Below are positions 194 through 63,319 of a DNA stretch of 64,000 nucleotides, in pieces (within the stretch, counting starts at the first letter, position 1; each line of letters opens with the position of its first letter). The stretch lies in contig NC_081358.1 in NCBI RefSeq assembly GCF_030684315.1, forward strand, positions 32,675,979 to 32,739,978. The letters are read 5' to 3'. The notes below the pieces were generated by a model. The model made no database searches. It was not told where the DNA came from and worked only from the letters and a program-made list of their open reading frames with translations. The stretch is from Stegostoma tigrinum (lineage: Eukaryota). The translations under genes were made by a program, and so were the position numbers.

Positions 194-332
194 GAGTTCT
201 GAAGAAGGGTCACTGAGCCTGTAATGTCAACTCTGAGCACTCTCCACAGATGCTGCCAGACCTGCTGAGATTTTCTAGCAATTTATGTTTTCATTTCAGA
301 TTTCTAGCATCAGCAGATCTTTTGGTTTTTTT
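194..332 (+). mobile_element. Penelope-derived terminal-repeat element (family B) with degenerate hammerhead motif
   Basis: GAGTT-CTGAAGA-A-GGGTCACTGAGCCT-GTAA-TGTC-AACTC (stem I GAGTT/AACTC, GAAA mutated), then CAGATGCTGCCAGACCTGCTG and the family tail. Confidence 0.7.
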
Positions 333-809
333 CAGTGTGTTTTCTAGACGTTGGCTTCCTTTAATTGTACCTAAAGCCCTGGGAGCTGGTATGTAAGGGT
401 GAAAGGGACTGACAGTTCAGTTCCGTAATCTACTTTTGCCAAAGATCCCAAACCAATCAACAGATATCTCCAAGCAAGGTAAGTTCTGTTTTGTATGCCT
501 GATGCTGTGAGTTCTGTTCATAATTACATCGTTTTGATTGTCTGCTGTGCAGCTTAGATTGGTGATGGGCAGATGTCTAACGCTACTATATTTAGAATGC
601 AGAAGCGCAAGTGAAACTGCTAGTTTCTATTTAAAGATAGTACTTAGTCAAAGCTAGTTTTTCAATGTTGGGTGAATTTGATAAACATGTATTAATTGAT
701 TTAGGAGGCTGAATGGAAGAAGGTAGAAATTTTGTTAGGTACAATACAGCTGTGAAGATAGTTCGTGAATTTTGCATGCAGATTGAAAGAAGTCTAAGTA
801 AAATAATTC

Positions 810-975
810 ACCTGGAAGGTGTGTTAGGAGCATTGGACAGTGTGGAGTGAGGAGGTGAATGGAGAAGTGTTATATATTCTCTGATTGCCATGGGGGAGTG
901 AGGAGGTGTTAGCTGTGATGGAGGAGTGGACCCGGGTGTCATGGAGGAAATGGCCTCTCCGGAATGCCCACTCAC
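810..975 (-). mobile_element. Old Penelope-like element internal fragment
   Basis: Purine-rich sequence resembling PLE coding region in antisense; recognised by eye only. Confidence 0.35.
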
Positions 976-1174
976 ATGCATCTATAGCATAACACAGGCT
1001 GTTTTGAAACTGTACGTAAGTTTATTTATGTTGACACTTTTGTAGAGTATTAATGTGTGTTTTTAAAATGAGTGGCAATTAAATGTGTATAAATGGGCTT
1101 GTGCAATTTCTAAATTACTTGATAGTTATCAGTTTGTGGTACACAACAGAAATGTATCTCTTCGTAAGTTCTAA

Positions 1175-2000
1175 TTTACGATGGTGGATAAGACAGATGA
1201 GTTCGGAGTATGGATTTACATGTGGAATTACAATGTTGTTGCCATCTCAGAGCCGTGGTTGAGGGAGGGACAGGATTGGCAACTCAGCATTCCACGGTAC
1301 ATGATTTTCAGGCAGGGTCAGCAAATATGTAAAACAGGAGGAGGGTCAACTTACTAATGAATGCGTCCGTCACTGCAGTGAAGAGGGATAATATCTTGGA
1401 AGGGTCTTCAAATGAGGCTTTGCGAGTAAAGTTTAGGAATGAAGAGGAGGCAGTCACATTGCTAGGAGTGTATTTAGAACCCTAATTAGCTAGTAGGCAA
1501 TACAGGAACAGATATGTAGACAATTCACTGAAGGGCGTAAGGATAACAATCAAGGAATCATAACAGGGATTTCAACTTCTCAAATTGCAATAGTCATAGT
1601 GTAAAGGGTTTAGAGGGCCAAGATTTCTTGAAATTTATTCAGGAGAGTTTTTTATATCAACATGTAGAAGGTCCAACAAGAGACTGCAGTACTGGCCCTA
1701 ATTCTGGGGAACAAAGCTGGACAGGCATTCCAAGTGGCAGAGAGGAGCGTTTTGATAATAGTGACCACAGCACAGTACGTTATAAGTTTCTTATAGAAAA
1801 GGAAAAAGACAGTCTGTCAAAAAGGATTTTGGATTGGGACAAGGAAGATTATTTTAAAAACTAACACAGTATCTGACCAAAGTAGACTAGGAACAGTTAC
1901 TTCTGGACAAATATACAGCAGAACACTGGGGGATTTCGAATTGTAATTGGTGAGGGTACGAGCCCAACCCTAGAGGGTGAAATGTAGGAGCGACATACAA
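1175..2000 (+). mobile_element. CR1-type LINE ORF2, AP-endonuclease region, pseudogenised
   Basis: Translates to NYNVVAISEPWLREGQDWQL and FLYQHVEGPTR...NSDH, typical CR1 APE motifs; frameshifts and stops. Confidence 0.8.
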
Positions 2001-2009
2001 CGAGACCTG

Positions 2010-2790
2010 GAAAATATCCAGGCCTGGGCTAACAAGAGGTGAGTGACATTTAAAATGCCAGGCAATGATCATCACCAAAGAGAGAGACAATCTAACCACA
2101 GCCCCTGACATTCAATGGCACTACCGTCACTGAATCCCTCACTATCAACATACTCAGGGTTACCTTTGACCAGAAATTCATCTGGACGTGCCATATAAAT
2201 ACAGTGGCTAAATGAGCAAGTCAGAGGCTAGGAATACTCACCTCCTGACTCTCGAGATCCTGTCTACCATCTCCAAGGCACCAGTCAGGACTGTGATGGA
2301 ATACTTCCCACTTGCTTAAATGAGTGCAGCCCCAACAACACTCAAGAAGCTTGACACTATTCAGGACAAAGCATCCTGCTAATTGATAGCACATCCACAA
2401 GCATCTATTCCCTCCACCACCGATGCTTAGGAGCAGCAGTGCTATCTACAAGATGAACTGCAGAAATTCATCCAAGATCCTCAGACATCACCTTCCAAAC
2501 CCCAAACCACTTCCATCTAGAAGGACAAGAGCAGCAGATATATGGGAACATCATTACCTGTAAGTTCCCCTCCAATCCACACACCATCCTGACTTGGAAA
2601 TATATCACTGTTCCTTCATTGTCGCTGGTTGGAAATTCTGGAATTCCCTCCCTAAGGGCTTTGTGGGTCAACCTACAGTGCATGGACTGCAATGGTACAA
2701 CAGGGCAGCTCACCACGGCCTCCTCAAGGGGCAACTAGAGATGGGCAATAATTACTGGCCATGTCCCAAAAGTGAACTTAAAAAAACATG
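2010..2790 (+). mobile_element. Non-LTR retrotransposon (second LINE family) RT C-terminus and 3' tail
   Basis: Collinear with 41200-41960; tail GGGCAACTAGAGATGGGCAATAA; interrupts the upstream CR1. Confidence 0.75.
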
Positions 2791-2929
2791 AGGCCAGAGA
2801 GCCCTGGATCTGTAGGAGTATTTAGGACTGGATAAGAAGGAATAAAGAGCCTTTTTGCAGGTAGAAGGGGAATAATTTAACAGGGAGAGTGCAGAGGGGA
2901 TCTCAAGTAATCATTGGTGACATCATTGG

Positions 2930-8656: not shown

Positions 8657-8784
8657 CATCAGATGAAGGGTCTAGGCCTGAACCGTCAGCTTTCCTGCTC
8701 CTAAGATGCTGCTTGGCCTGTTGTGTTCATCCAGCCCCACACCTTGTCATCTCGGATTCTCCAGCATCTGCTGTTCCGATTATC
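8657..8784 (+). mobile_element. Penelope-derived terminal repeat (family A), single arm with tail, degenerate hammerhead
   Basis: CAGATGAAGGGTCTAGGCCTGAACCGTCAGC...CCAGCATCTGCTGTTCCGATTATC, homologous to 35221-35347. Confidence 0.8.
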
Positions 8785-10234
8785 GCAAAAATCCTGATCT
8801 GTGAGAGCTGACCACTCCCATTCAGGCTGTTTTTAAAAAAATACCCAAAGCCTCCCAAGCTGTTTACATAAGCTGTCTTTGGTAGCAAGCTTTTTAGCTC
8901 TGCCTTACAGCTTCTCTTCAAAAACAACCAGGACAAAATAACATCTTAAAGTGACAGCATTATCACAGTATGTAAATAGAACATAGAACAATACAGCGCA
9001 GAACAGGTCCTTCGGCCCTCGATGTTGCGCCGATCTGTGAACTAATGTAAGCCCCTCCCCCTACACTACCCAGAATAAATAACACAATAATTGTAAATGT
9101 CGAAACACAGGAGCAATTCGGCCCAGTGACCGTTCAATGTACTCATGGCTGATCCTGTATCACGAAAGCTTCTCCCCTTAACCATCCGCGCCTTTTAAAA
9201 GTGTCTAGAAAACTATCCATTTCTTGCTTCAGTATATTCAGTAACTTGACACCTGTAGCCTTCTATAGTAGAGAATTCCACTCTGAGTGAAGAAATTTCT
9301 CCTCACCTCACTTCTTAATGATGAAACTGTGAAATCTTGGTTGTGGAACCTTATCTTTAAATCAAGTCAATTCGGTCAGAGTTTTATACATCTCAGTGAG
9401 ATTCTTCACTCATTCTTTTCACCTTCAGCAAATATAGGCCCAGACAATCTCTCCTAGTATGAGAAATACTGCATCTCTTCCTGAATTCACATCTGGCCTT
9501 GCAAAGCAAGAAAAATAAACTCATAATCCACTTGAGATGAAACTCTTGTTTTCAGTATTAGCTTTTTCTTCAATTCACCTTTTAACTACAACTATTGATC
9601 TCATGCATTTTAGGATCCAGGCCCAAGGTAATCCATTTTGGTCACCTGTTTTAAAACTCAGTTGATTATGTCAGCTTGATTTTGAACTCAGTTAACTCCA
9701 GCGAGTGCAGAAAAAGAGGCGGGTGGTGCATCCAGCTCCCAGTGTTTACATTCATGAGGCCCTTGGGCTTGCTTCAATAAAATCTCACTCTCTTTTGACA
9801 ATATAAATGTAGTTGTTTTATTAGGCTTTTGAAAAAATACAACGTTGTTTAACATCTCCAACCATCATAGAAATATCTACAATGGCAAATATCTACAATC
9901 TCTCTCTCTTTTCAACTCACCTATCTCCACCAGTACCCTGACCCTACCAACTTCAATAGGACAGCTTACAGCATTTTGAACCTTCCAAATTCACACTTCA
10001 TGATTTTTTTTTAAAAAATCAGTACTTTCCATGAAAGTAAAAGTAAAATCTTTGAAATCTGAGTTGAAACTGATACAGAGATTATAAAAAAGCTCATGTG
10101 GCAGATTATTGGATCAAAGAACAATGTATCAATGCCTGTGTAGACCAGGAAACCCAAGTACATTATTAACCGTAATAATAAAATGTGAGGCTGGATGAAC
10201 ACAGCAGGCCCAGCAGCATCTCAGGAGCACAAAA

Positions 10235-10267
10235 GCTGACGTTTCAGGCCTAGACCCTTCATCAGAG
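10235..10267 (-). ncRNA. Minimal type I hammerhead ribozyme motif
   Basis: Minus strand CT-CTGATGA-A-GGGTCTAGGCCT-GAAA-CGTC-AG; core intact. Confidence 0.75.
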
Positions 10268-10495
10268 ACGGGGATGGGGTGAGGGTTCTGGAATAAATAG
10301 GGAGAGAGGGGGAGGCGGACCGAAGATGGAGAGAAAAGAAGATAGGTGGAGAGGAGAGTATAGGTGGGGAGGTAGGGAGGGGATAGGTCAGTCCAAGGAA
10401 GATGGACAGGTCAAGGAGGTGGGATGAGGTTAGTAGGTAGGAGATGGAGGTGCGGCTTGGGGTGGGAGGAAGGGATGGATGAGAGGAAGAACGGG

Positions 10496-10927
10496 TTAGG
10501 GAGGCAGAGACAGGTTGGACTGGTTTTGGGATGCAGTGGGTGGAGGGGACGAACTGGGCTGGTTTTGGGATGCGGTGGGGGAAGGGGAGATTTTGAAGCT
10601 GGTGAAGTCCACATTGATACCATTGGGCTGCAGGGTTCCCAAGCGGAATATGAGTTGCTGTTCCTGCAACCTTCGGGTGGCATCATTGTGGCACTGCAGG
10701 AGGCCCATGATGGACATGTCATCTAAAGAATGGGAGGGGGAGTGGAAATGGTTTGCGACTGGGAGGTGCAGTTGTTTATTGCGAACCGAGCGGAGGTGTT
10801 CTGCAAAGCGGTCCCCAAGCCTCCGCTTGGTTTCCCCAATGTAGAGGAAGCCACACCGGGTACAGTGGATGCAGTATACCACATTGGCAGATGTGCAGGT
10901 GAACCTCTGCTTAATATGGAAAGTCAT
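10496..10927 (-). pseudogene. PLE GIY-YIG endonuclease domain
   Basis: FTCTSANVVYCIHCTRCGFLYIGETKRRLGDRFAEH...VANHF...EQQLIFRLGTLQPNGIN: VVY/YIG motifs plus conserved R, E, N. Confidence 0.9.
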
Positions 10928-11145
10928 CTTGGGGCCTGGGATAGGGGTGAGGGAGGAGGTGTGGGGGCAAGTGTAAAGTTTTGGTCCTTGAAGAACTTGG
11001 ACATCTGGGATGTGCGGGAGTGGAATGCCTCATCGTGGGAGCAGATGCGGCGGAGGCGGAGGAATTGGGAATAGGGGATGGAATTTTTGCAGGAGGGTGG
11101 GTGGGAGAGGTGTATTCTAGGTAGCTGTGGGCTTGAAATGGACAT
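10924..11145 (-). pseudogene. PLE reverse transcriptase C-terminal (thumb) fragment
   Basis: SHPPSCKNSIPYSQFLRLRRICS, characteristic of PLE RT C-terminus; joined to the endonuclease linker by a deletion near 10975. Confidence 0.8.
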
Positions 11146-12269
11146 CAGTTACAAGCTGGTTGCCTGAGATGGAGACTGAGAGTTCCCATCATCACTGATA
11201 CATTATTAACCGTGTTGCATTTTGAGTGACTTCCTTGTACAACAAAGATCTATTGTACAGGCTAAGGTCAGTGTCAATCCTGAGCATATTTTCTCGATTA
11301 GGCTAAGAACATTGATCTTTGGAAACTTTAGATTTTTGATGAATACTGCAATGCAGTATTGAGGAGAGTGAGGCAAGGTTAAAATGCAATAACTTTAATG
11401 AAATGGAAACCCAAAAAGTAATTCATTTCTAGTGCAAGTGAACATAATTTTCCCTTGGCAGGGTCTCCTTCCTCACTGTTGTACAAATGCTAATACACTT
11501 TCATTTTGGACAATGATATTCACAGAAGACTTGTTGAGCTGAGTGCTTAAGCTCTCTGTTTAACCCTGTTGTTCACATTTGCACAGTCAAGTGCCTCAAA
11601 TCACCATTATCAACCTTGTTACCTATCCAACTCAATTTACACCATTCTGTGCCATTTCTGTTTTCTACAAAGGAGACAATGTTGCAATAAAGTATGAACA
11701 ATTTGTATCTTGCAATTCACAACATGGGAATTTTATTGTCTCATGACTCAGTCCTTTGCAGTCCCGATCTAGGACTCCTTCCTAATGTTTTCCTCAAAGA
11801 AGGAGACGCAGTAATGTTTGTCTGCGCCAAACTGAGAATCATTTGAGATTCAGTTAGCCCTGACTCATGGTATCCAATTTATGATACTGCTCTGCATCTA
11901 ATTCTGACATCCACTCTGTTTTCTGAAAAGGCAAGTTAGCTGAGATAGATGTGGCATCAGCTGACAGTTTGCTTTATACAGCTGGACACATTTTTAGCAT
12001 TCTAGTGACCTGTTTTAGATTTGGTCTTTTAGCATCAAAAACTTCACACAATGTTTCTTGGCTATCTCCGTCCAATCCAACAGCATTTTGTAGTAAGAAC
12101 ATAAGAACAGAGGTCGGCCATTCAGCCAGCTTGCCATTTGATGATCATGGCTGATCTCACCTCAGCCTCAACTCCGTTTTCCTGCCCATTCTCCAGTAGC
12201 CTTTAACCCATTACTAATTAAAAATCTTTAACAAATTAGTCAAACATCAATAATTTCATTGGATATGGA

Positions 12270-12600: not shown

Positions 12601-12629
12601 TACATGACTGACTCCTCCAGAAGAAGAGA

Positions 12630-13819: not shown

Positions 13820-14728
13820 GGATGAATATGTTAGTCAAAGGTGTTAAGTAATTCAGCTGTATCTGTTTTATTGCAATTATACACATTGAGAATCTAGAAA
13901 TGGACTTGGGAATCTTCAATGGTTAAGTTCTTTTTTCATTCTGTAAAAAAGATAATACTAAGAAAAATGCCAAGTATACTTACTTGATTAGAGATGGACT
14001 GGCCTTTGTTTTTCACTGAAAGTTGCTGCATTTTAAACCTGTCTTTCATTCCTTAGTGCTGTATCATAGCTTGTTTTTTGTAAATCCACATTTTCCAAGG
14101 GCCTCATCTAAGAAATTACATGTTGCATCATCAAAACTTGCTGTCTTCTTCTTTTAATTTCTGAATACCTCACTGCAAAAATGGTATACTTTGGTTCAAA
14201 TTTCCTTGGGGTTTCTGCGAAACTCCTAGCTTCATTCTTGATATAAACTGCTGAAAGTGGCATCCGGTTGTTTACATTGTTGTGGAAAATTTTGGGCAGA
14301 AGGCTGACGTATTACATGTGTAAAGTTGGGAAATTTAATTGTAACTAAATTGAAACTGATCTGTTGCGAGCACAAGGCAAACTTGCAAACTTTTAAACGT
14401 AACTGCTAAAAATCATTCCATTTCTTAAAATACAGATTCATATTATTCTGCCAAAGTTAAAAAAAAGCTTTTCAAGTAGTGAACCCGAGGAATCTTTTCT
14501 GTAAAAGGCAGGCTTAGTACTTAGTATCTTTGAACATAAACAGTTATTGAAAGAAACCTGCAAATATGCTGGAAGAGACCAGTCCAAAAATGGAGGTGTT
14601 AATTATCAGATGGTACTCGAGAGAGTGGCTGTTTGATCCATCATACCTGTGCTAGGTCTTTAGAGCAATTATCTATTAAATCCACTCCATTGCTTTCACC
14701 TTGTAGTGCTGTAAAATTTAATTCTTCA

Positions 14729-14853
14729 GAGATAGTAGGAAGTGCAGATGCTGGAGAATCTGAGATTACAAAGCATGGAGCTGGATGAACACGGCAGGCC
14801 AAGCAGCATCAGAGGAGCAAGAAGGCTGACATTTCGGGCCTAGACCCTTCTTC
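14729..14853 (-). mobile_element. Penelope-derived terminal repeat (family A-like), single arm with tail
   Basis: GCAGATGCTGGAGAATC...GCTGACATTTCGGGCCTAGACCCTTC; sits in a CR1 tail fragment. Confidence 0.8.
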
Positions 14854-15355: not shown

Positions 15356-15504
15356 AAACAAAAATAAAGGCTGAAAGAATTGTGCATGCTGTAAATCAGG
15401 AACAGAAACCGAAGTTGCTGGAAAAGCTCAGCAGGTCTGGCAGTATCTGTGAAGGAAGAAGTCAGAGTTAACGTTTCTGGTCCGGTGACCCTTCCTCAGA
15501 ACTC
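15356..15504 (-). mobile_element. Penelope-derived terminal repeat (family B)
   Basis: Homologous to 194-332 and 62885-63020 in antisense. Confidence 0.8.
15465..15504 (-). ncRNA. Minimal type I hammerhead ribozyme motif
   Basis: Minus strand GAGTT-CTGAGGA-A-GGGTCACCGGACCA-GAAA-CGTT-AACTC; 5-bp stem I, one mismatch at the base of stem II. Confidence 0.7.
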
Positions 15505-16269
15505 AAACAAAAATGATGGCAATGCTCCACATGTTGCAGCATCTGTGAAGAGAAACAGGATTCTTGTTTCATTATTAAGCACCACCTCTACTTTCCAAGA
15601 TTTTCAGCTTTCTGAAGTCACTTTACCTTCTGCAATGTTCTGGTTAATTCCTCAGTAATCCCCTTTCCAATGGCACCTTTCCATGTAAACACCAGTCTTG
15701 TTACCTGCTTCCTTGCCATCATCTTTGTCCTAGAATCTCCTTCCATTTAAAACAGCAATTTACTTCAACTACTTTCAAATTTAATATGGCATCTTTTCTG
15801 TTCACAGCGTGATCTCCTGAAATTTGGGGAAACAAAATTGTTGCTACTAAGTGGGTTGAGGTGTCTGATTGGGTCCTCCCTCAAAATTGGTTGCAACAAA
15901 TATTTGAATACTTCATTAGCACACAGCTATTACATTCCAATTCAAATTTAGTTCATTAGAAGGAGCCATTTCCAGGGTTTTCTTGAGTAAAACAAATATT
16001 AATTTAAAATGTAACAATGAACACATAAGCACACAGACATAAATCAGTTTAAAAAGAGGGAGCAAGGTGTTGTTATACAGAGAGCAAGGTGCAGTGGAAG
16101 TTCAAAATTCTCAGAGTCTATTGTGGGGTTAGATTTTTACACCGAGTCCTGACTGTTTGCTTAGTTCTTTAGCAGAGGTGAAATCTGTAGACCTTGTGTT
16201 CTCAGTGGACAGTGCCCTTTATCAGGCAAATGTTTTGAGGTTGGGAGAGAAGAGTTTTCAGTATCATAA

Positions 16270-16590: not shown

Positions 16591-16949
16591 ACTCCTTGTC
16601 TTTGCGGGTGTCGTGCTTCTTCTCTCTTTCTTACTTACATATAACCTACTGAAAAATAGTTCACTGTATATTTCAAGATAAGCTGCATTAGCTCTTTCAT
16701 CTCCCAAAATGTGAATTTATCATGCAATCATGAGTAACCCAAGAGACAGAAAGATCTTAATGCCTTCCTAAGTTTCAGTACATCTTGACTCATGTGATCA
16801 ATCTCACACAGATGGTTTTGTATATTCCATGGAGGATATATGACCTCATCAGGGCATCACAGCAACCATTTTAGACCAGGAAAGCTAATTTTGAAACCAT
16901 TTTTAGTCCATCAAAGTCTCAGTTATTAAAGTTAAATGCCAATGGTTGA

Positions 16950-17090
16950 ATAAAAATGAAAAGAACTCCAAAAGCTGTCAATCAAAAACAAAAACAGGAA
17001 TTGCTGGAAAAGCTCAGCAGGTTTGGCAGCATTCGTGGAGAGGAATCAGAGTTAATGTTTTGGGTAGAGTAACCCTTCCCCAGAACTTGA
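16950..17090 (-). mobile_element. Penelope-derived terminal repeat (family B), degenerate hammerhead
   Basis: Homologous to 15356-15504. Confidence 0.7.
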
Positions 17091-17624
17091 GGGAGTTCCT
17101 CTGTTTTGAGAGAGGGTCACTTGACAAATGCTGAATGTTGAAGGCCCATTTTCACAATGGTAGTAACAAAATGTAACTTCTTTATAGAACACCTCACTCC
17201 AGCTCTCAAGTGTGATCTGCTTTTAATGACTTGTCATTGCTATTCTTTGCCTTGGACCCACTCTGTCCTTTCTGTGAATGGATTGCTACTTTGTGTCAAT
17301 GAAGCTCAACTTAAGCTCCAGGAACAGCACCATAACTTTTGCCCCATCACACCACAACCTTCTAGACTTCGTATTCAGTTCAACAAGTTGAGATCACAAC
17401 CTTTCCATTCATCTACATCTGTGTGTCTGTGTGTGTCTGTCTGTGTGTGTCTGTGTGTGTGTGTTTTGTGCACCTGTTTCATTCTTTATCCCTTCATGTT
17501 GTACTCAGATGGCTGCTATGTGGGCACAACATCTGTTTCTTTCCTACGCCCAATACCATTCACTTCAGCATCAATTTATCTTTTCTTTGCCAGTTACTGC
17601 TGACTCCCAGTGTCACTTGCATGT

Positions 17625-27095: not shown

Positions 27096-27726
27096 CCAAC
27101 TGAAACATGGTTACAATTCTAAAACCATGATGAAGGAGCATGCTGATAAGACATATCATCTCGAAAAATCAAAGTTGGTGTTCAAATCCGATTGGGTGTT
27201 GTTCCATAATTGTCAAGAAAAGCTGAAGCGATTTGCAAACTTGGTTCCGTATGATTGTTGAGGATTTCCACAAGATGACAAGTGATGGATCTTTCCTTAA
27301 GATTGGTATAAGCTTTGCTATACCCTCAACATGTATAGATCCACCAAAGGAGGATCTTTGTGGTTCTGAAACAAAATATCAGCCATCAATATCCAACTAA
27401 TACACATCTCTCCTGCACTGTCTTTTCAGAAATGGAGATCCTTTCAAAAGTTTGCATGTTACATTTTAGAAAATACAGTGTTTGAATTGTAAATAGAGGA
27501 AAGAGAATGTTTTCTATGTTGTCCGTAATTTGCTTATTCATTCGGAATACAGACTCAACTACCAGAGCTATGTGGATCCCATCAGTATGGAGCAAATCTG
27601 ACCTATCGCCAACTTTGTTAACTGTGACTAACTTGGAGAGGGTTGTGAACTGCACTCTTTTCTAAATGGCTGTTAAATTCCTGAGCCATGATTGGCTGGC
27701 TATCGTTACATATTCGAATGTAGAAT

Positions 27727-27815
27727 AGGTCAGGAGTCACATGACACCAGGTTACAGTCCGACAGCTTTATTTTAAATCATAAGCTTTCGGAGCGCTGCT
27801 CCTTCGTCAGATGTA
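27727..27815 (-). mobile_element. Penelope-derived terminal repeat (family C)
   Basis: Homologous to the arms of 57940-58080; contains a hammerhead motif. Confidence 0.7.
27779..27813 (-). ncRNA. Minimal type I hammerhead ribozyme motif (family C)
   Basis: Minus strand CAT-CTGACGA-A-GGAGC AGC GCTCC-GAAA-GCTT-ATG; perfect stems I and II, palindromic AAGCTT stem III. Confidence 0.8.
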
Positions 27816-29475
27816 GTCAGGTGGAATTTGGAATAACTAGGTTTGTGCTGATCTGATATCAATGCAGGTGCTTTCAGCAGAGCATTAAGACAGCAAACAG
27901 GACCGTAAACCCCAGGAAAGTTCTTCTGAACCCAGAGACTTTGGGCTCAATTGAACTGCATTAATTTCTGGCCTCTACTGAGTATACTGAAGTCATTGTG
28001 GGTCAGAGAGTCATACATCTGTACAGCATGGAAACAGACCCTTCAGCCCAATTCGTCTATGCTGACCAGATATCCCAAATTCAGGTTAAATAATGTGGAC
28101 ATACAGTGGTTGCTCAGAAACCTCCTTAAATCCCTGCCTTAGTTTATATGTAACTTTAGAAACTTCTGAAGGAAGACTATCCTGAAGTATTTGTTTCCAA
28201 GGCGTGTAAATATCTCTTTTCAGCCCTGGTCTTTCATCCATGCACAGACCTAACTTGAACAGAGATGAGTAATTGGCTACAATAGACTGTTTGCAATATG
28301 TTAACAACAAATCTGTGAAATCCACAGCTCTGGTCATTTTAGAAACAAGTGTGGAGAATTTCAGAAATTGTGAGTGCATCCAGATGGCTTGGAGTAAGGC
28401 CATTAAAAAAAAACTGCATTTGTTCTTGGATATGGATAGTACTGAAAATAGCCTTGGCCAAGATTTGCTCAATCCATCTGAACTGCAATCATGTTCCTGG
28501 ACTGCATTAGGAAACAGAAATGTCTCTCAAAGCAGTTTAATAAATTCAGAAAATAGGAAAAGCTTTACACCTGGCTGTTTGCTTTTGAGGAACCGAATGA
28601 TTTGTGTAGTTCTAAGCACCAGTGTATGCAACATACTTTGTACAGCAGTAAATTTTGAAGTGTTAAGTTCAGCTGTTTCTTTGTCTTAGGAGAAATGTTC
28701 ACAGGTTTACGTTACCCTCGTTATCCAAATTTATGATTATCTCGCGCATCCAAGCCCAAAAGAGTATGAGTTTAGATTGTGCAGGTGCGTATGAATTTAA
28801 TCATGTATCAGTCCGTGAAATTAAGGCCTGCCTACTGTCCATGGATGACTGACACTAATGGATTACAGGCTAAATAATGTGGACATACATCAAAATTGAC
28901 CAATCAGTTTAGTGCAGCTTGAGCTAGGTTTACTGTCTACTGATTACATTGGCTTTGCATTTTTATTTGTAATTTGCATGCAGTGACTTTTTGGTTGTTA
29001 ATTTTTCATTGGAATTACAGTGTTGCTTTTAAATGGTGTTCATCCATTACCCCAATCTGCAGCACAAGTATATTACGCTAAAAGGTGACTGGACAATAAT
29101 AACTTGATTATGTGTATGTTTGAAATCTAGCATATACAAATGACACTGGCTTTAAGAGTTTTAAAATGGCACAAGTAACACATTACTTTTGTAAAGGGAA
29201 AAATGTAATGATGAATTGTAATTGAAACAAGTATCATAAAATCTACTATGGGTTCAACGGATTCATGTCTTTCTTCAGGGTTTAGATATGTTACATATAA
29301 AGCCACTTTTAACTTTATCTCTTTTTTAAAAATTAACCTTTATAGATATATTGGCCATGAATCAATAAGCATTTATACCATTTAAAATTAGTGCTTGCAA
29401 AATGCCAGACCAAAGATTGCAATTTTAATAATTATATGCTAAAATTCACTAAGCATAACTCATGTCTTCTTTCAG

Positions 29476-34134: not shown

Positions 34135-35220
34135 AGGGGGATGGAGAGAGGGAACTGGAATAAATAGGGAGAGAGGGGGAGGCGGACCGAAGATGGAGAG
34201 TAAAGAAGATAGGTGGAGAGAGTATAGGTAGGGAGGGGATAGGTCAGTCCAGGGAAGACGTACAGGTCAAGGAGGTGGGATGAGGTTAGTAGGTAGATGG
34301 GGGTGCGGCTTGGCGTGGGAGGAAGGGATGGGTGAGAGGAAGAACCGGTTAGGGAGGCAGAGACAGGTTGGACTGGTTTTGGGATGCAGTGGGTGGGGGG
34401 GAAGAGCTGGGCTGGTTGTGTGGTGCAGTGGGGGGAGGGGACGAACTGGGCTGGTTTAGGGATGCAGTAGGGGAAGGGGAGATTTTGAAACTGGTGAAGT
34501 CCACATTGATACCATTAGGCTGCAGGGTTCCCAGGCGGAATATGAGTTGCTGTTCCTGCAACCTTCGGGTGGCATCATTGTGGCAGTGCAGGAGGCCCAT
34601 GATGGACATGTCATCTAGAGAATGGGAGGGGGAGTGGAAATGGTTTGCGACTGGGAGGTGCAGTAGTTTGTTGCGAACTGTGCGGAGGTGTTCTGCAAAG
34701 CGGTCTCCAAGCCTCCGCTTGGTTTCCCCAATGTAGAGGAAGCCACACCGGGTACAGTGGATGCAGTATACCACAACCCGAAGGTTGCAGGAACAGCAAC
34801 TCATATTCCGCCTGGGAACCCTGCAGCCTAATGGTATCAATGTGGACTTCACCAGTTTCAAAATCTCCCCTTCCCCTACTGCATCCCTAAACCAGCCCAG
34901 TTCGTCCCCTCCCCCCACTGCACCACACAACCAGCCCAGCTCTTCCCCCCCCACCCACTGCATCCCAAAACCAGTCCAACCTGTCTCTGCCTCCCTAACC
35001 GGTTCTTCCTCTCACCCATCCCTTCCTCCCACCCCAAGCCGCACCCCCATCTACCTACTAACCTCATCCCACCTCCTTGACCTGTCCATCTTCCCTGGAC
35101 TGACCTATCCCCTCCCTACCTCCCCACCTATAGTCTCTCCCCCTATCTTCTTTACTCTCCATCTTCGGTCCGCCTCCCCCTCTCTCCCTATTTATTCCAG
35201 TTCCCTCTCCCCATCCCTCT

Positions 35221-35252
35221 CTCTGATGAAGGGTCTAGGCCCGAAACATCAG
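35221..35252 (+). ncRNA. Minimal hammerhead motif (stem III CpG decayed)
   Basis: CT-CTGATGA-A-GGGTCTAGGCCC-GAAA-CATC-AG. Confidence 0.65.
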
Positions 35253-35729
35253 CTTTTGTGCTCCTGAGATGCTGCTTGGCCTGCTGTGTTCATCCAGCTT
35301 CACACTTTGTTATCTTGGATTGTCCAGCATCTGCAGTTCCCATTATCAATGGATGGGAGGCTGGTTTGTGTGATGGGATCTTGGTATGTGGAGACAAAGA
35401 GAGCCATTTGTAAATGTGAGGGGTAGGAGGTCATTAAAATATCTCATAATAGGAAGTGCAAAGAAATTATGGCAGAAATCAATACCAGGCATGTAACCTC
35501 ATATGGACTCTCATCAAAACCTATTTCAAATCAAAAGCGCTTACAGAGCTATGCAGGAAGAAGTTTAATGATTGTGTGTGTCTTACTGAGGCAAACATGT
35601 TCAGTCTCTTCAGATGATGCATTTTATCAACCTCACCACTCGCCTCACTGCCTCAGATATTCAAATAGCAATCTCCACTCAAAAATATCCTATAGGGCAC
35701 TTACTAACACACTTCCCCTTTCTCAGGAG

Positions 35730-36258: not shown

Positions 36259-37062
36259 TGTAACAAAAATTGTATTTTTTTTTGGTTTTAGTGAGTTGTT
36301 TTCTCTCTCAGAAAGAAGTACACAATGTTGCAGATTTTGTTTTAACAATAAAACAGAATTTTAGAAAACAAAAGAAATGGAAAAAATAGAATAAGCCAAT
36401 CTATTTACTTATTTAAAATGCAAATTCAGGAGAGTTTTAAACAAACAGTACATGCCTTTGCAAGATTTTGTTTTTAAAAGAATCCATTGTCCAGCAACCC
36501 TTTTGCAGTACTCATATCAAAAACCCTTTCTCTACTGCCTCAACAGGTTTAAGGTAATTGTGACTTTACCTTCTGGACTGGAACCCTGATAGCTTATTCC
36601 TGGAGCTAATATATATCTGACCTCAAACAAACTCTGTTTCAAGTACACTTCATAAATTTGTCCCAACACTTCTGGTACTATCACTAACTACTTACTATTC
36701 TAGTTTTACTGTATTATCCCCTTCTTGGGAGCACTCTATACTTCTCAATGTAAGGAGTTCACAGAATTTCCCCACTCAAAGTAAAACTAGAAACAAATAT
36801 TTCTTCCTTTAAGCTATGAAGGTTTCCCTTAAAGTTGAAAAAAGCTCCCAGTCCAGAAATTTTTAACAGAAGCCTTGACATACAATTGCCTACTTTACTA
36901 GCTCATAAATCCTAAAGGAAATAAGAACCTGTAACGCTATCAAAGTAATCTCAAGAAACAACACTGGCTATAGAAACACTTACAAGTTAATCACTAACTT
37001 CAGACACACCTAAAGTGTACTAAGTCAAAATTCAAAACACAACCCTAAAGTATGTGATATAA

Positions 37063-37950
37063 GAGATAATGGGAACTGCAGATGCTGGAGAATCCAAGAT
37101 AATAAAATGTGAGGCTGGATGAACACAGCAGGCCAAGCAGCATCTCAGGAGCACAAAAGTTGATGTTTCGGGCCTAGACCCCTTCATCAGAGAGGGGGAT
37201 GGGGAGAGGGTTCTGGAATAAATAGGGAGAGAGGGGGAGGCGGACTGAAGATGGAGAGTAAAGAAGATAGGTGGAGAGAGTGTAGGTGGGGAGGTAGGGA
37301 GGGGATAGGTCAGTCCAGGGAAGACGGACAGGTCAAGGAGGTGGGATGAGGTTAGTAGGTAGATGGGGGTGTGGCTTGGGGTGGGAGGAAGGGATGGGTG
37401 AGAGGAAGAACAGGTTAGGGAGGCAGAGACAGGTTGGACTGGTTTTGGGATGCAGTGGGTGGAGGGGAAGAGCTGGGCTGGTTGTGTGGTGCAGTGGGGG
37501 GAGGGGACAAATTGGGCTGGTTTAGGGATGCGGTGGGGGAAGGGGAGATTTTGAAACTGGTGAAGTCCACGTTGATACCATTAGGCTGCAGGGTTCCCAG
37601 GCGGAATATGAGTTGCTGTTCCTGCAACCTTTGGGTGGCATCATTGTGGCACTCCCTTCCTCCCACCCCAAGCCGCACCCTCATCTACCTACTAACCTCA
37701 TCCCACCTCCTTGACCTGTCCGTCTTCCCTGGACTGACCTATCCCCTCCCTACCTCCCCAACTATACTCTCTCCACCTATCTTCTTTTCTCTCCATCTTC
37801 GGTCCGCCTCCCCCTCTCTCCCTATTTATTCCAGAACCCTCACCCCATCCCCCTCTCTGATGAAGGGTCTAGGCCCGAAACGTCAGCTTTTGTGCTCCTG
37901 AGATGCTGCTTGGCCTGCTGTGTTCATCCAGCCTCACATTTTATTATCTT
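37063..37950. mobile_element. Palindromic Penelope insertion (family A)
   Basis: Tail 37063-37095, inverted arms 37096-37394 and 37653-37950; exact 14-bp TSD AGTATGTGATATAA (37049-37062, 37951-37964). Confidence 0.92.
37855..37886 (+). ncRNA. Minimal type I hammerhead ribozyme motif, fully consensus
   Basis: CT-CTGATGA-A-GGGTCTAGGCCC-GAAA-CGTC-AG; predicted cleavage after C37884. Confidence 0.8.
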
Positions 37951-47221: not shown

Positions 47222-47540
47222 GCAGCTGGAGGAACATTTTCTGAAGAAAGGTCCTGACCCAAAATGTCAAGTTTCCTGCACCTCTGATGTTGCCAGGCCT
47301 GCAGTGTTCCTCCATCTGGTTCACTAATGTCCTTTAGGGAAGGAAACTGCCATCCTTACCTGGTCTGGCCCACACACGACTGTGGACCCACATCAATGTT
47401 GTTGACTCTTCACTGCCCTCTGGGCAATTAGGGATGGGCAATAAATGCTGCCTAGCCAGTGAGTGAAGAAAACACACTGAAGGAAAAGCTCACAATGTGT
47501 TATCTCTGACTCCAGCATCTGCAGTTCTTACTATCTCTAT
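47222..47540 (+). mobile_element. Family A-like PLE terminal repeat with degenerate hammerhead, split by a SINE fragment
   Basis: TTCTGAAGAAAGGTCCTGACCCAAAATGTC.. at 47240-47270; tail CTCCAGCATCTGCAGTTCTTACTATCTCT at 47510-47538. Confidence 0.65.
47317..47465 (+). mobile_element. tRNA-SINE 3' half with LINE-like tail
   Basis: CTGGTTCACTAATGTCCTTTAGGGAAGG..GGGCAATTAGGGATGGGCAATAAATG. Confidence 0.7.
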
Positions 47541-52086: not shown

Positions 52087-52947
52087 TTCTTTATTTCTTT
52101 CTTTTGATACTTAAATACAAACTGAAGTGAATACAAAAGGACCCTGACGCCCATTTATTCTCATTAGCATTCCTTGATTGACAAGCTTGGCCACCGTGTG
52201 ATATAACTACAATTCTGATTGATCAATTATGCCATCAATCTGTCTTTGTCTACAGCTACTTTTGGTAATTTTTGGAAGATCACTGCTGACCCCCCTACCA
52301 ATGTGTTTGGGAACCTAGAACACAGAGTCCCCATGAAGTGGCAGGCTGTGTCAATAGAAAATACTGAATGAACTAAGGATGATTAATCATAACATTCAGG
52401 AGCCCCTTTAGTGCTGAATGGCTTGCTGCAAATTGTTTGTGGTGGCCTCATTGGAAAATATTTTACTTGAGCAATTCTCTGTGATATTCACAAGCTACTT
52501 TACAAAACAAAAGTGGTGTATTAACAGGCGATTTCAGTTTGATTACAAATCAATATTGTTGTTTTTCATGCTTTAGTCAGTGCCTTGGAATTAACCAGTC
52601 TGTGTTTAAAGAAATAAAAACAAATTCTTTAGCACTACAGGCATAGAAGAAAATATAAATTGCAGAAAATGAACCATACGTGCACACTCAACAAGAACTT
52701 GTGTTTATGTGATAGAATATCTCAAGGCACTAATTTTCCACTGCATTTCCCTGCAGCCTCTGGGACTCAACATCAGGTTCAGTGACTTTAGAGCCTGATT
52801 CCGTCCTTCCATGTTTTAAACCCTCCCCCACACCCAGGCCTGTTATGACATGGACTGCTTTAAGCGCAGATTACCTATTTCCACCCACTCTCTGGTCTAT
52901 TATCACATTATACAGTTTGCTTACAGCGCAAACCATTTTATGCTATG

Positions 52948-53120
52948 TAGGAGCAAATTACAGCAGATCCTGGAATCTGTACTGCAAATAACAAATGCTG
53001 GAAATCACAGCGGGTAGGACAACATCCATGGAGATACAGCAAGCTCCTCCGCTCTGAAGAGTCATCTGTACTCAAAACATTAGTTTGCTGCCTTTCCATG
53101 GATGTTGTCTGACTCGCCAT
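52948..53120. mobile_element. Miniature palindromic PLE-derived element (family D, or diverged B)
   Basis: Inverted segments 53018-53045 and 53082-53109 around a degenerate hammerhead (TGAAGAGTCATCTGTACTCAAAACATT); tail-like GCAGATCCTGGAATC on the left. Confidence 0.6.
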
Positions 53121-53318
53121 TCTCTGCTACCCTCAGCACTCATTGTCACTTCTTCAGCTTCTGTCCTGATCTGCCATCCATAATCTTCTTGTTCAGCTAC
53201 CAGTTTCCGATCTCTCTCTGAGCTCCACTACCACCTATTTGCTCATTTCCCTTCCCCCTCCACTCCCCTTCCCCAACCTCATTGTCAGTATAAATACTGG
53301 CTTCTCCTCACTGCTGCT

Positions 53319-53422
53319 AGCTCTGATGAAGAGTCATTCGACTCGAAATGTTAACTCTGCTTTCTCTCCACAGATGCTGCCACATCCAGTGAGTTACTCC
53401 AACAATTTTGTTTTTTTTTCAA
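53319..53422 (+). mobile_element. Family B PLE terminal repeat with hammerhead motif
   Basis: CTGATGA(53323)-A-GAGTC ATTC GACTC-GAAA-TGTT-AACT; perfect stem II differing in sequence from other copies. Confidence 0.75.
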
Positions 53423-53426
53423 ATCT

Positions 53427-57119: not shown

Positions 57120-57880
57120 ACATGACATTGGTGGGACCACATCTGGTGTAATGTGTGTAATGCTGATCTCCTAATTTAGGGAAGTATGTTGGAGGCAGGT
57201 GAGAGAATGCTTACCAGACCAGTACCTGGATTATTTTATGAGGGATTGTTGGATAGGCTTAGCTTTTATCCGTTGGGGCTTAGAGGAGCAGGAGGTGTGA
57301 AACAAAAAACAGAAATTGCTGATGAACCTCAGCAGCTGTCTGGCACTAGTGGGAAGAAAGCAGAGTTAACATCTTGAGTCAGGTGACTCTTCATCAGAAC
57401 ACAGTTAATTCTGCTTCCCCCCCCACCGATGCTGCCAGTCCTGCAGGGTTTCACCACAATTTCTGTTTTTGTTTCAGATTTCCAGCATCTGCAGTTCTTT
57501 GTCATATGACACAGGAGTAGGAGGTGACTTGACTGAAACATATAATATCTGAAATGTTTTATCAGGGTACATGTGGAAAAGGATGCCGTCATGAGTGGGA
57601 GAATCTAGAACCAGCAATCATTGCCTAAAAGTAAGGGATGAACCATGTGGGACAAAGAGATAAAAGATTTAATTTTCTCAGGAGGTGAAGATCTTTGGAG
57701 CTATGCCTGCGCTGTCTTTTGAATGTTTTTAAGGTAGAGGCAGACAGACCATTGACAAACCAGGGGGCGAACAGTTATTGAGAAGAGGCAGAACGTGGAA
57801 TAATTGGATCAGCCTTGATCTGACTGAATAGCAAAGCAGGCTTGATGAGTCAAACAGTGTACTCCTACTAACACTCATAC
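57120..57880 (+). mobile_element. CR1-type LINE 3' fragment, interrupted by a family B palindrome
   Basis: Degraded CR1 coding and tail on both sides of 57298-57512. Confidence 0.65.
57298..57512. mobile_element. Miniature palindromic family B element
   Basis: Left arm TGAAACAAAAAACAGAAATTG.. inverted to ..CAATTTCTGTTTTTGTTTCA plus tail; minus-strand hammerhead ~57363-57400; flanking AGGAGCAGGAGGTG / AGGAGTAGGAGGTG. Confidence 0.8.
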
Positions 57881-57939: not shown

Positions 57940-58080
57940 GTGGAGATGCTGGTGTTGAACTGGAGTAGAGAAAGTCAGAAGTCACACTACACTGGGTTAT
58001 AGTCCAACGGGCTTATTTGAAATCACTAGCTTTCAAATAAACCTGTTGGAGAATAACTGGTGTCATGTGACTTCTGACTT
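57940..58080. mobile_element. Miniature palindromic family C element
   Basis: AAAGTCAGAAGTCACA.. inverted to ..TGTGACTTCTGACTTT; ~30-nt tail on the left; flanks TGGCTTAATT / TGGCTTAACT. Confidence 0.7.
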
Positions 58081-61665: not shown

Positions 61666-61694
61666 AAAATAGGGATTCTATGAAAATAGATACG

Positions 61695-62030
61695 TGAAGA
61701 ATTTTCCTGATGTTGGGGAAGTCCAGAGCTAGGGTTTATGGTCTTAGAGTAAGGAGAAGGCCATTCAGGACTGAGATGAGGAAGAATTTCTTCACTTGAA
61801 GAGCTGTGAACTTGTGGAATTCTCTCCCACAGAAGCTGTTGGGACCAGTTCATTAGGTATATTCAAGAGGGAGCTGGACATGGCCCTTGTGGCTGAAGGG
61901 ATCAAGGGAAATGGAGAGAGGGTGGGAATGGGATACTGAGATTACATGATCAACCATGATTGTGTTGAATGGTGGTGCAGGCTCAAAGGGCAGAATGGGC
62001 CTACCGCTACATCCATTTTCAATGTTACAG
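61695..62030 (+). mobile_element. CR1-type LINE 3' end
   Basis: GGACTGAGATGAGGAAGAATTTCTTCAC.. to CR1 tail. Confidence 0.8.
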
Positions 62031-62697
62031 GTTTGTGTTTTTTTGAAGTTATCGAGAGAACATGAGAAATTCAGCACTCGCATAGTTAAACGTGAGAATG
62101 AATGGGTGACTGCTTTCATCTCAAGTTTTTGTTTTACTTGTCCTGTCTATTGCAGTATCAGTTGCCTGGCAGTCATGTAGTTCCACTCATATTCAGAAAG
62201 ATGTCTTTCAAACAGCCCCTGTAGACATTAATTTGACAAACAATTTCTCTTGATTCTTTAGGCTAAGAAACAAAGACAAAATGGAATTATGATGCCATAA
62301 ACATGTCAAATGGAGCTCTAGTTTATTTTCTATTTTGTATTCTTAAAACAAATTAACCACATTCACTATTTATTTTCCGTTGTATATTACTGATTCTGCT
62401 ATGATGATCTAGGGAGAAAGCCTTGCCCAGTGAATCAGAAACTTGCAGGTTTGCTAGTAGCTTGCTGGTGAAAAGGTTACAAATCTTGCTTCTTATCCCT
62501 GGGTTCACAGGGTTGGACCCCAGGGCTACCTAAAGCTCAAATCCACCAGCCACATGTGTAATGAGGTTTGTCAGTGCTTGGCTGCATTGTTCAATGTGGC
62601 ACTTCATGGATGTAAAGTTTCTTCTCTGAAAAAGCGAGTTTATTAATCTTGCCCTGTGGCTCCTAAGCCTGCTGTTGCATTCCAAGCTTGGAGGGGA

Positions 62698-62771
62698 GTG
62701 TGCGTGTGTACGTGCGTGTGTGCGCGCGTGTGTGCGCGTGTCTGCGGCGGCATGGGTATGTGGGGGGGGGG

Positions 62772-62802
<31 letters not shown>
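62698..62802. repeat. Compound (GT)/(GC)/G-run microsatellite
   Basis: Seen directly. Confidence 0.9.
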
Positions 62803-62803
<1 letters not shown>

Positions 62804-63022
62804 GAGAGAAATCAGAGCTAACATTTTGGGCTGAGTGACCCTTCCTCAGAACTGGGTGAGGTATCATATGAGAGGCTCCTCATAGTTCTAAGGAAGGGTC
62901 ACTGGACCTGAAGTATTAATTCTGATTTCTCTCCACAGATATTGTCAGACCTACTGCGATTTTCCAGAAATTTCTGTTTTTGTTTCTGATTTATCGCATC
63001 CACAGTTCTTTTGGTTTTTATG
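62800..63022. mobile_element. Miniature palindromic family B element with two diverging degenerate hammerheads
   Basis: 62800-62853 inverted to 62885-62938; the right arm continues through the tail. Confidence 0.75.
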
Positions 63023-63098
63023 AAAAGATGATCAGTTTTCCCTTCTGTGGCAAGGAAGAAACGGAAACAAAATAAATAAAAACACATCTTAAATTCTT

Positions 63099-63319
63099 AG
63101 ATAACAAAGTGTGAAGCTGGATGAACACAGCAGGCCAAGCAGCATCTCAGGAGCACAAAAGCTGCCGTTTCGGGCCTAGACCCTTCATCCCTCTCTGATG
63201 AAGGGTCTAGGCCCGAAACATCAGCTTTTGTGCTCCTAAGATGCTGCTTGGCCTGCTGTGTTCATCCAGCTTCACACTTTGTTATCTTGGATTCTCCAGC
63301 ATCTGCAGTTCCCATTATC
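63099..63319. mobile_element. Miniature palindromic family A element
   Basis: 91-bp arms 63099-63189 and 63197-63287 (3 mismatches), 7-nt loop, tail to ~63319; TSD TCTTAAATTCTTAG / TCTTACATTCTTAG. Confidence 0.92.

What the first reader, a model, noticed from the sequence alone, without database searches (positions are those of the whole stretch)
194..63319. Dense multi-family population of hammerhead-ribozyme-bearing Penelope terminal-repeat elements
Seen: about 15 loci in 64 kb carry CTGANGA-A-stem II-GAAA-NNTH or a clear decay of it. Stem II differs between families but keeps pairing: GGGTC/GGCCC (A), GGGTC/GACC(C) and GAGTC/GACTC (B), GGAGC/GCTCC (C). Stem III is only a self-complementary tetramer (ACGT or AGCT). 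Best copies are 37855-37886(+), 27779-27813(-), 10235-10267(-), 15465-15504(-) and 53319-53356(+). Established: minimal type I hammerheads occur in Penelope-like pseudo-LTRs and are thought to cleave efficiently as dimers. Inference: most copies are 90-220 nt and lack coding sequence, so they behave as non-autonomous, ribozyme-bearing miniature retroelements mobilised by the Neptune-like GIY-YIG elements seen at 10, 34 and 37 kb. This could be a very high-copy ribozyme system in this genome.
Basis: partly seen in the sequence, partly recalled or inferred. Interest (0 to 1): 0.75.

Follow-up and report, generated by a model that had tools for sequence, protein, structure and literature searches.

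The report
Shark Penelope tails with hammerhead ribozymes
The scattered hammerhead-ribozyme motifs are real, mostly decayed, and sit in the terminal repeats of a very abundant Penelope-type jumping gene of a shark (a known arrangement); many short copies begin at the ribozyme's front edge, likely because reverse transcription runs off the start of an uncut transcript, not because they are a separate mini-element.

Summary
Observation confirmed: 18 hammerhead-bearing arms plus one decayed nested copy, in 15 insertions; only 2 of 18 are fully intact. They are minimal type I hammerheads in pseudo-LTRs of Neptune-type Penelope-like elements of a carpet-shark-like genome (GIY-YIG region 94-96% identical to zebra and whale shark proteins). 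This kind was described in 2014, and this scan reported it before on other DNA. Family A has roughly 60,000-100,000 long copies and probably several times more short ones. The 'non-autonomous mini-element' reading is only partly supported. Six of 15 insertions keep coding remnants, short copies are as close to ORF-linked copies as those are to each other, and three inverted pairs share target duplications. Short copies are not random truncations either: in public contigs 936 junctions fall one base before the ribozyme core, a TATA-like box sits 34 nt upstream in families A and B, and 3' ends match the two-site Penelope tail. Likely mechanism: internally primed reverse transcription runs off the 5' end of an uncut transcript. 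Cleavage and transcription starts are untested.

The parts
192..330 (+). Family B short copy: hammerhead (C3=199, GTAA for GAAA) plus long tail
8659..8784 (+). Family A short copy, older (87% to A35223); damaged core; long tail
10175..11185 (-). Family A long 5'-truncated PLE copy: RT C-terminal remnant 11185-10975, internal deletion, GIY-YIG endonuclease 10981-10571, pLTR, hammerhead (C3=10265), short tail
14728..14853 (-). Family A short copy, older (85%), starts inside the core (+2), long tail
15374..15560 (-). Family B copy (C3=15499, G10.1-A11.1 mismatch) preceded directly by a tail-only unit 15505-15560
15657..15773 (+). Decayed PLE RT-EN linker remnant, head-to-head with the B copy at 15.4 kb
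   Evidence: E=0.01; E=0.025; translation
16947..17087 (-). Family B copy, decayed hammerhead (C3=17083), long tail
17181..17402 (+). Decayed GIY-YIG C-terminal half, head-to-head with the B copy at 17 kb
   Evidence: E=6e-5; E=5e-4
27715..27850 (-). Family C copy with an intact minimal hammerhead (C3=27810; CAU/AUG stem I, GGAGC/GCUCC stem II, AGCU palindrome); outer limits approximate
29470..29663 (.). Family B head-to-head inverted insertion, both arms cut inside or below the hammerhead
34040..35347 (.). One family A head-to-head inverted insertion broken within the endonuclease; hammerheads C3=34132(-) and 35223(+); 9-bp target duplication at 34028-34036 and 35346-35354 (14 bp with one mismatch)
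35189..35195 (+). TATA-like TATTTAT 34 nt above C3; the only such site in 320 nt; same position in all 5 long A arms
37062..37950 (.). One family A head-to-head inverted insertion; hammerheads C3=37190(-) and 37857(+); 14-bp target duplication at 37049-37062 and 37951-37964
37855..37886 (+). Intact family A minimal type I hammerhead; predicted cut after C37884
42228..42309 (-). Family B tail starting at the GAAA box
47240..47538 (+). Old A-like copy 47240-47317 (decayed hammerhead) and tail piece 47490-47538, probably one split insertion
52724..53424 (+). Long family B copy: weak endonuclease C-terminal remnant 52724-52797, pLTR, TATAAAT at 53289-53295 (34 nt above C3), hammerhead C3=53323, short tail
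   Evidence: (E=0.57, weak)
52925..53111 (.). Nested, strongly decayed inverted B-like insertion with a hammerhead relic at 53051-53111(+)
   Evidence: E about 9e-4
57298..57500 (.). Family B inverted pair: minus arm with decayed hammerhead (C3=57397), plus arm starting near the cut site
57975..58079 (.). Family C head-to-head pair of tails
62800..63019 (.). Family B inverted pair, two decayed hammerheads (C3=62849(-), 62888(+))
63099..63319 (.). Young family A inverted pair of short arms starting at +2 and -11 from C3; 8-bp target duplication (14 bp with one mismatch)

Best explanation
The motifs are minimal type I hammerheads in the pseudo-LTRs of abundant Neptune-type Penelope-like retrotransposons of a shark, left as mostly decayed insertions, and the short copies are likely run-off cDNAs made by the elements' own reverse transcriptase from an uncut transcript that probably starts at the ribozyme's 5' edge. 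Shown: order RT remnant, GIY-YIG, pLTR, hammerhead, tail in family A; two 3' ends about 32 nt apart; head-to-head inversions with 8-14 bp target duplications; a 5'-junction hotspot at -1 from C3; a TATA-like box at -34 in A and in B53323. Inferred: (1) transcription starts in the pLTR about 30 nt below the TATA-like box, so the hammerhead is the first thing in the RNA. (2) The RT/endonuclease nicks AT-rich DNA and primes at one of two internal tail sites (+92 or +124), as shown in vitro for the anole PLE. (3) Priming on a downstream pLTR gives long, truncated or inverted copies; priming on the first pLTR runs off the 5' end and gives a 95-130 nt hammerhead-plus-tail insert. (4) The template is uncut, because inserts keep the whole motif; the monomer folds as an inactive rod and would need a partner or the element's protein to cleave. 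(5) Inserted copies decay neutrally, and selection on the motif acts only in active lineages.
For: PLE identity. Coding remnants on 6 of 15 hammerhead-bearing insertions. Two tail ends at +90..93 and +124 in 9 of 10 hammerhead-bearing A arms; contig 3' junctions at 35314/5/6 in 1028/2905/815 contigs. PLE tail and internal priming: PMC11167929. All 5 short A arms start at -11..+2 and all 5 long arms extend to -204 or further. Run X1: 936 contigs leave the element at 35222 into unrelated flanks (agreement 0.38), and contig depth steps up 2.3-5.8x at that edge; run X9 5-13x, with 13 contigs at 35222. TATA-like site at exactly -34, the only one in 320 nt (A) and 150 nt (B53323). Short 63-kb arms are 1-2 of 89 nt from an ORF-linked arm. 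Monomer minimum-energy fold pairs CUGAUG with CGUCAG. Core versus flank differences: A 8/99 vs 23/261, p=1.0; B 8/77 vs 34/196, p=0.19. In an unrelated hammerhead-bearing PLE family from metagenome contigs, 16 of 34 informative copies start 13-28 nt above C3.
Against: No RNA data: the transcription start and cleavage are untested. The best-studied Penelope has a TATA-less internal promoter and a start about 120 nt upstream of the hammerhead region (PMC2377424; intron end at helix I per PMC4209133). TATTTAT is a one-mismatch TATA, and C27810 has no TATA-like site in 60 nt. Run X14 shows only a 1.5-2x step and no listed 35222 row. The tables were cut (2102 loose ends and 557 joints hidden; X1 saturated). 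The real +124 end is missing from the listed loose ends too, so the lack of a row at the cut site is weak, and depth keeps rising over 35240-35285. The hotspot also coincides with the base of the monomer hairpin (rival 1). B 5' ends cannot be placed exactly because no matching upstream reference exists. In the six best A copies the core is somewhat better kept (1/66 vs 15/174, p=0.077), partly because those copies were chosen for having a core. The metagenome cluster is biased: all copies were found by their hammerhead, and some starts reflect subfamily divergence.
Confidence: 0.6

Rival explanations
1. Same PLE origin, but the fixed 5' edge comes from structure: reverse transcription stops, folds back or integrates when the nascent cDNA completes the hammerhead hairpin.
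For: The monomer hairpin begins exactly at C3 and stem I at -2; the hotspot is at -1. B alignments end at the stem I base, -4/-5. Head-to-head fold-backs near the motif occur at 63, 62.8 and 57 kb. Self-priming was proposed for rotifer PLEs (PMC3846280).
Against: It does not explain the TATA-like box at -34 in two diverged families. In the metagenome family stem I starts at -5 but starts cluster at -13..-28. Head-to-tail joints land more often on -4 (60 contigs) than on -1/0 (35) in the listed rows.
Confidence: 0.15
2. One reading: the short units are a self-propagating non-autonomous family (SINE-like or retrozyme-like) that carries its own internal promoter and is mobilised in trans by the Neptune protein.
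For: Discrete length and fixed ends; short copies seem to outnumber long ones in contigs. Head-to-tail tandems of the 95-130 nt unit exist (95 contigs in the listed rows). Penelope has an internal promoter, and pLTR sequence is enough for mobilisation in trans. Non-autonomous PLE derivatives and pLTR-derived retrozymes are published.
Against: Short and ORF-linked arms are intermingled. Units do not start at the cut site, as ribozyme-released monomers would. Short copies lack the TATA-like box. No tRNA-derived head was found. No tandem hammerheads lie in the window.
Confidence: 0.2
3. Plain random 5' truncation; the apparent fixed edge is a detection bias from looking for hammerheads.
For: 5' truncation is the rule in PLEs. 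Tail-only copies exist here (29.5, 42.2, 47.5, 57.4, 58.0 kb). Long arms end at scattered places.
Against: 936 contigs break at one base with unrelated flanks, and depth steps up at that edge in two runs laid on a reference that includes the upstream pLTR. No A arm starts between -12 and -203.
Confidence: 0.05

Closest known systems
Minimal hammerheads (min-HHR) in pLTRs of metazoan PLEs, including fish Xena, Poseidon and Neptune (Cervera & de la Pena 2014, PMC4209133)
   Same: Type I topology, extra nucleotide between A9 and 10.1, G10.1-C11.1, palindromic 15.2-16.2 with no stem III loop, mostly solo copies, pairs on opposite strands, several families per genome
   Different: Shark host (no shark term in the 2 of 3 supplements searched). 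Estimated copy number well above the about 4,000 and 9,000 motifs given for coelacanth and Xenopus. Shorter stems in A (stem I 2 bp, stem II 4 bp).
Neptune/Nematis-type endonuclease-bearing PLEs (Craig et al. 2021, PMC8557442)
   Same: [quoted passage not shown]
   Different: No full RT in the window, so clade placement by tree was not done
Anole Poseidon PAc (Frangieh et al. 2024, PMC11167929)
   Same: Two tail ends; distance from stem II to tail end 116 nt here versus RT starts 111-118 nt into the ORF there; uncut RNA as template; hammerhead inactive alone
   Different: Different clade. I saw no mention of a fixed 5' junction at the hammerhead edge or of run-off copies in the parts read.
Non-LTR retrozymes of animals (Li et al. 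2026, bioRxiv 10.64898/2026.07.22.740005)
   Same: pLTR-derived, type I hammerhead, non-coding; reported in one chondrichthyan genome
   Different: Retrozymes are tandem arrays. The window holds only solo and inverted units; tandems are a small minority.

Membership tests
PLE minimal type I hammerhead (min-HHR) | Core CUGANGA...GAAA..UH | tested here: met
   Complete 10-nt core in 9 of 18 arms; strict intact in 2 of 18
PLE minimal type I hammerhead (min-HHR) | Extra nucleotide after A9, G10.1-C11.1, paired stem II | tested here: met
   stem II differs between A, B and C and stays paired
PLE minimal type I hammerhead (min-HHR) | Palindromic stem III without loop; stem I closing across the cut site, covarying between families | tested here: met
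   ACGU or AGCU; stem I CU/AG, GAGUU/AACUC, CAU/AUG. In metagenome hits, where stem I was not in the pattern, stem I >=3 bp in 9 of 19 palindromic types vs 3 of 54 others (types are not independent)
PLE minimal type I hammerhead (min-HHR) | Location in a PLE pLTR | tested here: met
   A: 310-345 nt below the GIY-YIG end. B: weaker, three adjacent remnants. C: not shown in the window; a C-like motif lies downstream of a PLE endonuclease in L058
PLE minimal type I hammerhead (min-HHR) | Self-cleavage as dimer or with protein | not testable with these tools
   Folding only: the inactive rod is the monomer minimum, and co-fold minima are not the active dimer
Neptune-clade PLE | GIY-YIG endonuclease C-terminal to RT | tested here: met
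   RT C-terminal remnant precedes the endonuclease at 11185-10571; relatives P0002 and P0010 have RVT_1 then GIY-YIG
Neptune-clade PLE | [quoted passage not shown] | tested here: met
   VVYCIHCTRCGFLYIG and downstream histidines
Neptune-clade PLE | CX2-5CxxC linker motif | tested here: inconclusive
   Complete in the 94-96% identical relatives P0001 and P0002; in the window only partial (deleted at 10.98 kb, decayed at 15.7 kb). Shared with Nematis
Neptune-clade PLE | RT phylogeny with reference Neptune and Nematis elements | not tested
   No RT core in the window and no reference set fetched. Li et al. found only Neptune and Poseidon in vertebrates
Endonuclease-bearing PLE insertion | Optional 30-40 bp tail, inverted arms, target duplication | tested here: met
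   Ends at +92 and +124; duplications of 8-14 bp on 3 of 3 A inverted pairs, none convincing on the 7 other events tested
Non-LTR retrozyme | Head-to-tail tandem units each with a hammerhead | tested here: not met
   None in the window; 95 contigs with such joints elsewhere in the genome against at least 936 solo 5' junctions
Non-LTR retrozyme | Circular RNA monomers released by self-cleavage | not testable with these tools
   No RNA run with raw reads was listed
Non-autonomous SINE-like family | Own lineage distinct from autonomous copies | tested here: inconclusive
   Not met for the 63-kb arms; the two older short A copies have no ORF-linked peer in the window; n is small

The most novel reading that the evidence does not exclude
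Shark Neptune elements routinely shed a 95-130 nt run-off product (transcript start, hammerhead, RT-binding tail) that keeps an internal promoter and is re-copied in trans, giving hundreds of thousands of ribozyme-bearing mini-retroelements. Its head-to-tail tandems place two hammerheads about 100 nt apart and are dimer-competent retrozymes caught at birth. This would be a direct route from PLE to SINE-like element and retrozyme, and one of the largest ribozyme-motif populations in a vertebrate.
Probability: 0.2. Interest if true: 0.6.

Novelty: new member of a known kind. Interest (0 to 1): 0.35.

Why it matters
The class is known, so the catch itself is not surprising. Two things add value. 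First, scale: about 10^5 long and probably several 10^5 short family A copies make sharks an unusually rich natural record of PLE integration products. Second, the fixed 5' junction at the hammerhead edge, together with the two tail ends, makes an open question testable from genomes alone: which RNA is the template for Penelope-like insertion, and does the ribozyme cut it first? The data favour an uncut RNA starting at the ribozyme, in line with the single in vitro study. They also suggest how pLTR-only units, and from them retrozymes, arise.

Tried and rejected
Rfam scan at E<=5: no hammerhead family hit; the miRNA-family hits at 29.5, 57.3, 62.8 and 63.2 kb are the inverted pairs. No whole genome is held, so there was no genome-wide descriptor count. 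A protein search with the frame reading through B53323 found nothing (161 candidates, none at E<=10; weak). Viral contigs gave 1 hit with no PLE link. The metagenome scan gave 119 loci, none similar to the window by blastn; 13 of 47 copies of the main family were dropped as cut by contig ends before the 16-of-34 count. No RNA holder was listed, which says nothing about expression. Bisulfite reads (X21) are strand-biased over the hammerhead, so they were used only for upstream depth; their loose end at 35224 was rejected as a conversion artefact. Per-base variation over the core could not be read (153 rows hidden). B57397 was mis-registered by one base and redone. Whole short units fold no better than shuffles for A and B (z -0.2 to 0.7); only the C unit and one B tail reach z about -2.3. 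Literature: 'Penelope + pLTR + TATA + transcription start' 0 papers; 'Penelope-like + strong-stop' 1 unrelated; 'hammerhead ribozyme + shark + retrotransposon' 3, none on shark PLEs (two judged from the listing only). The library lacks most subscription papers; Lunse et al. 2017 was not held and is known to me only from a review's passages and reference list. One supplement of PMC4209133, the figure content of PMC11167929's supplements and the bioRxiv supplements could not be seen and may list shark elements or 5' boundaries. Dfam and Repbase could not be checked.
Full report
Observation. The five named motifs are present as written, and the predicted cut after C37884 is correctly placed. A pattern covering the three families matches 5 times against none in 100 shuffles. 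A structural descriptor matches 7 times against a shuffle mean of 0.015. Self-comparison, alignments and profile scans give 18 arms with a recognisable hammerhead (A 10, B 7, C 1) plus one decayed nested relic, in 15 insertions; three further insertions are tail-only or cut inside the motif. Only A37857 and C27810 pass a strict test of core, stems and palindrome (2 of 18). Rfam does not detect them.

What it is. Family A lies 310-345 nt below a GIY-YIG endonuclease (Pfam E=3e-4, just under the curated cut-off), which is preceded at 11 kb by the end of a reverse transcriptase. The region is 96% and 94% identical to zebra shark and whale shark proteins, so the host is very likely an orectolobiform shark (inference). 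These relatives have RT then GIY-YIG and the CX2-5CxxC linker that marks Neptune and Nematis (PMC8557442, passages). No RT tree was made. A and B are homologous over hammerhead and tail (cross-hits down to E=3e-10). Three B insertions have PLE coding remnants beside them: a GIY-YIG half at 17181-17402 (E=6e-5), a linker piece at 15657-15773 (E=0.01) and a weak endonuclease end at 52724-52797 (E=0.57). C has no coding neighbour here, but a near-identical motif lies downstream of a PLE endonuclease in L058. In all, 6 of 15 hammerhead-bearing insertions keep coding sequence and 9 do not. The elements at 34-35, 37 and 63 kb are each one head-to-head insertion with a target duplication of 9, 14 and 8 bp; the 7 other events tested showed none that was convincing. 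A arms end at +90..93 or +124 from C3, the optional 30-40 bp PLE tail.

Is the motif under selection? Between families the core is constant while stems change and stay paired (stem I CU/AG, GAGUU/AACUC, CAU/AUG). Among metagenome hits, where stem I was not part of the query, 9 of 19 types with a palindromic stem III have 3 or more stem I pairs against 3 of 54 others (p=1e-4; types not independent). Within families the core is not significantly better kept than its neighbours (A 8/99 vs 23/261; B 8/77 vs 34/196; best six A copies 1/66 vs 15/174, p=0.077). So the motif is maintained in active lineages, and inserted copies decay. The intact A monomer folds with its core paired away, and the co-fold minima are not the active dimer. 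This fits the low activity reported for dimers (PMC4209133, parts 1-2 of 4 read) and the protein dependence of the anole PLE ribozyme (PMC11167929, parts 1-2 of 4). Li et al. saw cleavage in 1 of 9 Xenopus dimers (parts 1-3 of 5).

Copy number. I laid four public runs on 34780-35450. Raw bisulfite reads of the same species label (X21; 1,938 million letters) cover the upstream pLTR 20,000-26,000 deep from the one strand that still matches. With the whale shark genome size as a stand-in (2.96-3.73 Gb, PMC8455134 passages) this is about 61,000-100,000 long copies. The window's density (11 A arms in 64 kb) would give 500,000-640,000 arms if typical. These are order-of-magnitude estimates. Cervera and de la Pena give about 4,000 and 9,000 descriptor hits for coelacanth and Xenopus, which counts intact motifs and is not strictly comparable.

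Why the short copies are short. All 5 short A arms with a hammerhead start at -11..+2 and all 5 long arms reach -204 or further. In X1 contigs, 936 leave the element at 35222, one base before C3, into unrelated flanks, and summed contig depth rises 2.3-5.8x at that edge; X9 shows 5-13x and 13 such contigs; X14 shows only 1.5-2x and no listed row. Contig depth is not a copy number, and the tables were cut, so the lack of a listed junction at the cut site (35250/35251) is weak evidence. Listed joints include 95 contigs joining a tail end back to -4, -1 or 0 (head-to-tail units of 94-129 nt) and 212 tail-to-tail inversions. A TATA-like 7-mer lies at exactly -34 in all long A arms and in B53323, the only such site in 320 and 150 nt, which would put a start near -4. 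A putative TATA and initiator in a pLTR were noted for rotifer PLEs (PMC3846280, passages), whereas Drosophila Penelope has a TATA-less internal promoter (PMC2377424, passages). In an unrelated PLE family from metagenome contigs, 16 of 34 informative copies start 13-28 nt above C3, 6 of them at -17 (13 of 47 dropped as contig-cut). Frangieh et al. showed that the PLE enzyme primes inside its RNA 111-118 nt below stem II, that shorter 5' ends give shorter products, and that uncut RNA is the main template. The A tail ends 116 nt below stem II. The simplest reading is therefore run-off: priming in the first pLTR copies back to the transcript start and inserts hammerhead plus tail. This step is inference; confidence 0.6, against 0.9 for the PLE-pLTR hammerhead identity itself. 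The short 63-kb arms are 1-2 of 89 nt from an ORF-linked arm, which argues against a separate lineage, on few copies.

Rivals.

Novelty. Minimal hammerheads in fish Neptune pLTRs, solo copies, inverted pairs and tails are all published, and earlier notes of this scan describe the same thing in other shark-like genomes (summaries only). I found no paper on shark PLE hammerheads or on run-off copies starting at the ribozyme edge, nor a scan note with those words, but the library is incomplete and repeat databases could not be checked. Verdict: new member of a known kind, with one modest, testable mechanistic addition; interest 0.35.

Noticed in passing
window 53349-53376 (+) and other B copies: Just below the B cut site the sequence reads like a 3' splice site (TTAAC branch-like motif overlapping the cut, pyrimidine run, CAG followed by ATG). 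A copies lack it. It may be a pLTR intron acceptor or just base composition.
   Followed up: no
window 34040-35347: The two arms of this single insertion differ at the three tail positions that separate two A subtypes, suggesting two templates or differing 5' and 3' pLTRs in the source element.
   Followed up: partly
joints 35253/35254 to 35219 and 35347 to 35251/35270: A few contigs carry a duplication of the hammerhead alone (about 35 nt), and a few join the tail end to the cut site; not examined.
   Followed up: no
window 56421-56623 (-): Decayed 28S rRNA fragment (Rfam LSU_rRNA_eukarya, E=1.5e-14).
   Followed up: no
window 30028-30603: Tandem array of a 56-nt unit, about 10 copies.
   Followed up: no
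window 44448-45230: Very G+C-rich minisatellite of about 22-25 nt units.
   Followed up: no
window 12592-12909, 20750-21793, 22467-22989, 39771-41890, 47700-48240, 55006-55273: Fragments of other non-LTR retrotransposons (RVT_1 hits at 12.6 and 40.6 kb); family names not tested.
   Followed up: no
window 779-1072 (-): Another decayed PLE RT-EN linker remnant (E about 9e-4), not attached to a hammerhead copy in the right orientation.
   Followed up: partly
L012, L018, L043, L066, L111 and about 45 related loci: A second hammerhead-bearing PLE family in metagenome contigs shows short fold-backs 12-17 nt above the core, with starts at an initiator-like CAGTT.
   Followed up: partly
window 62689-62804 and 17402-17465: Two B-linked pieces abut (TG)n repeats, consistent with the microsatellite bias reported for Neptune-type elements.
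   Followed up: no
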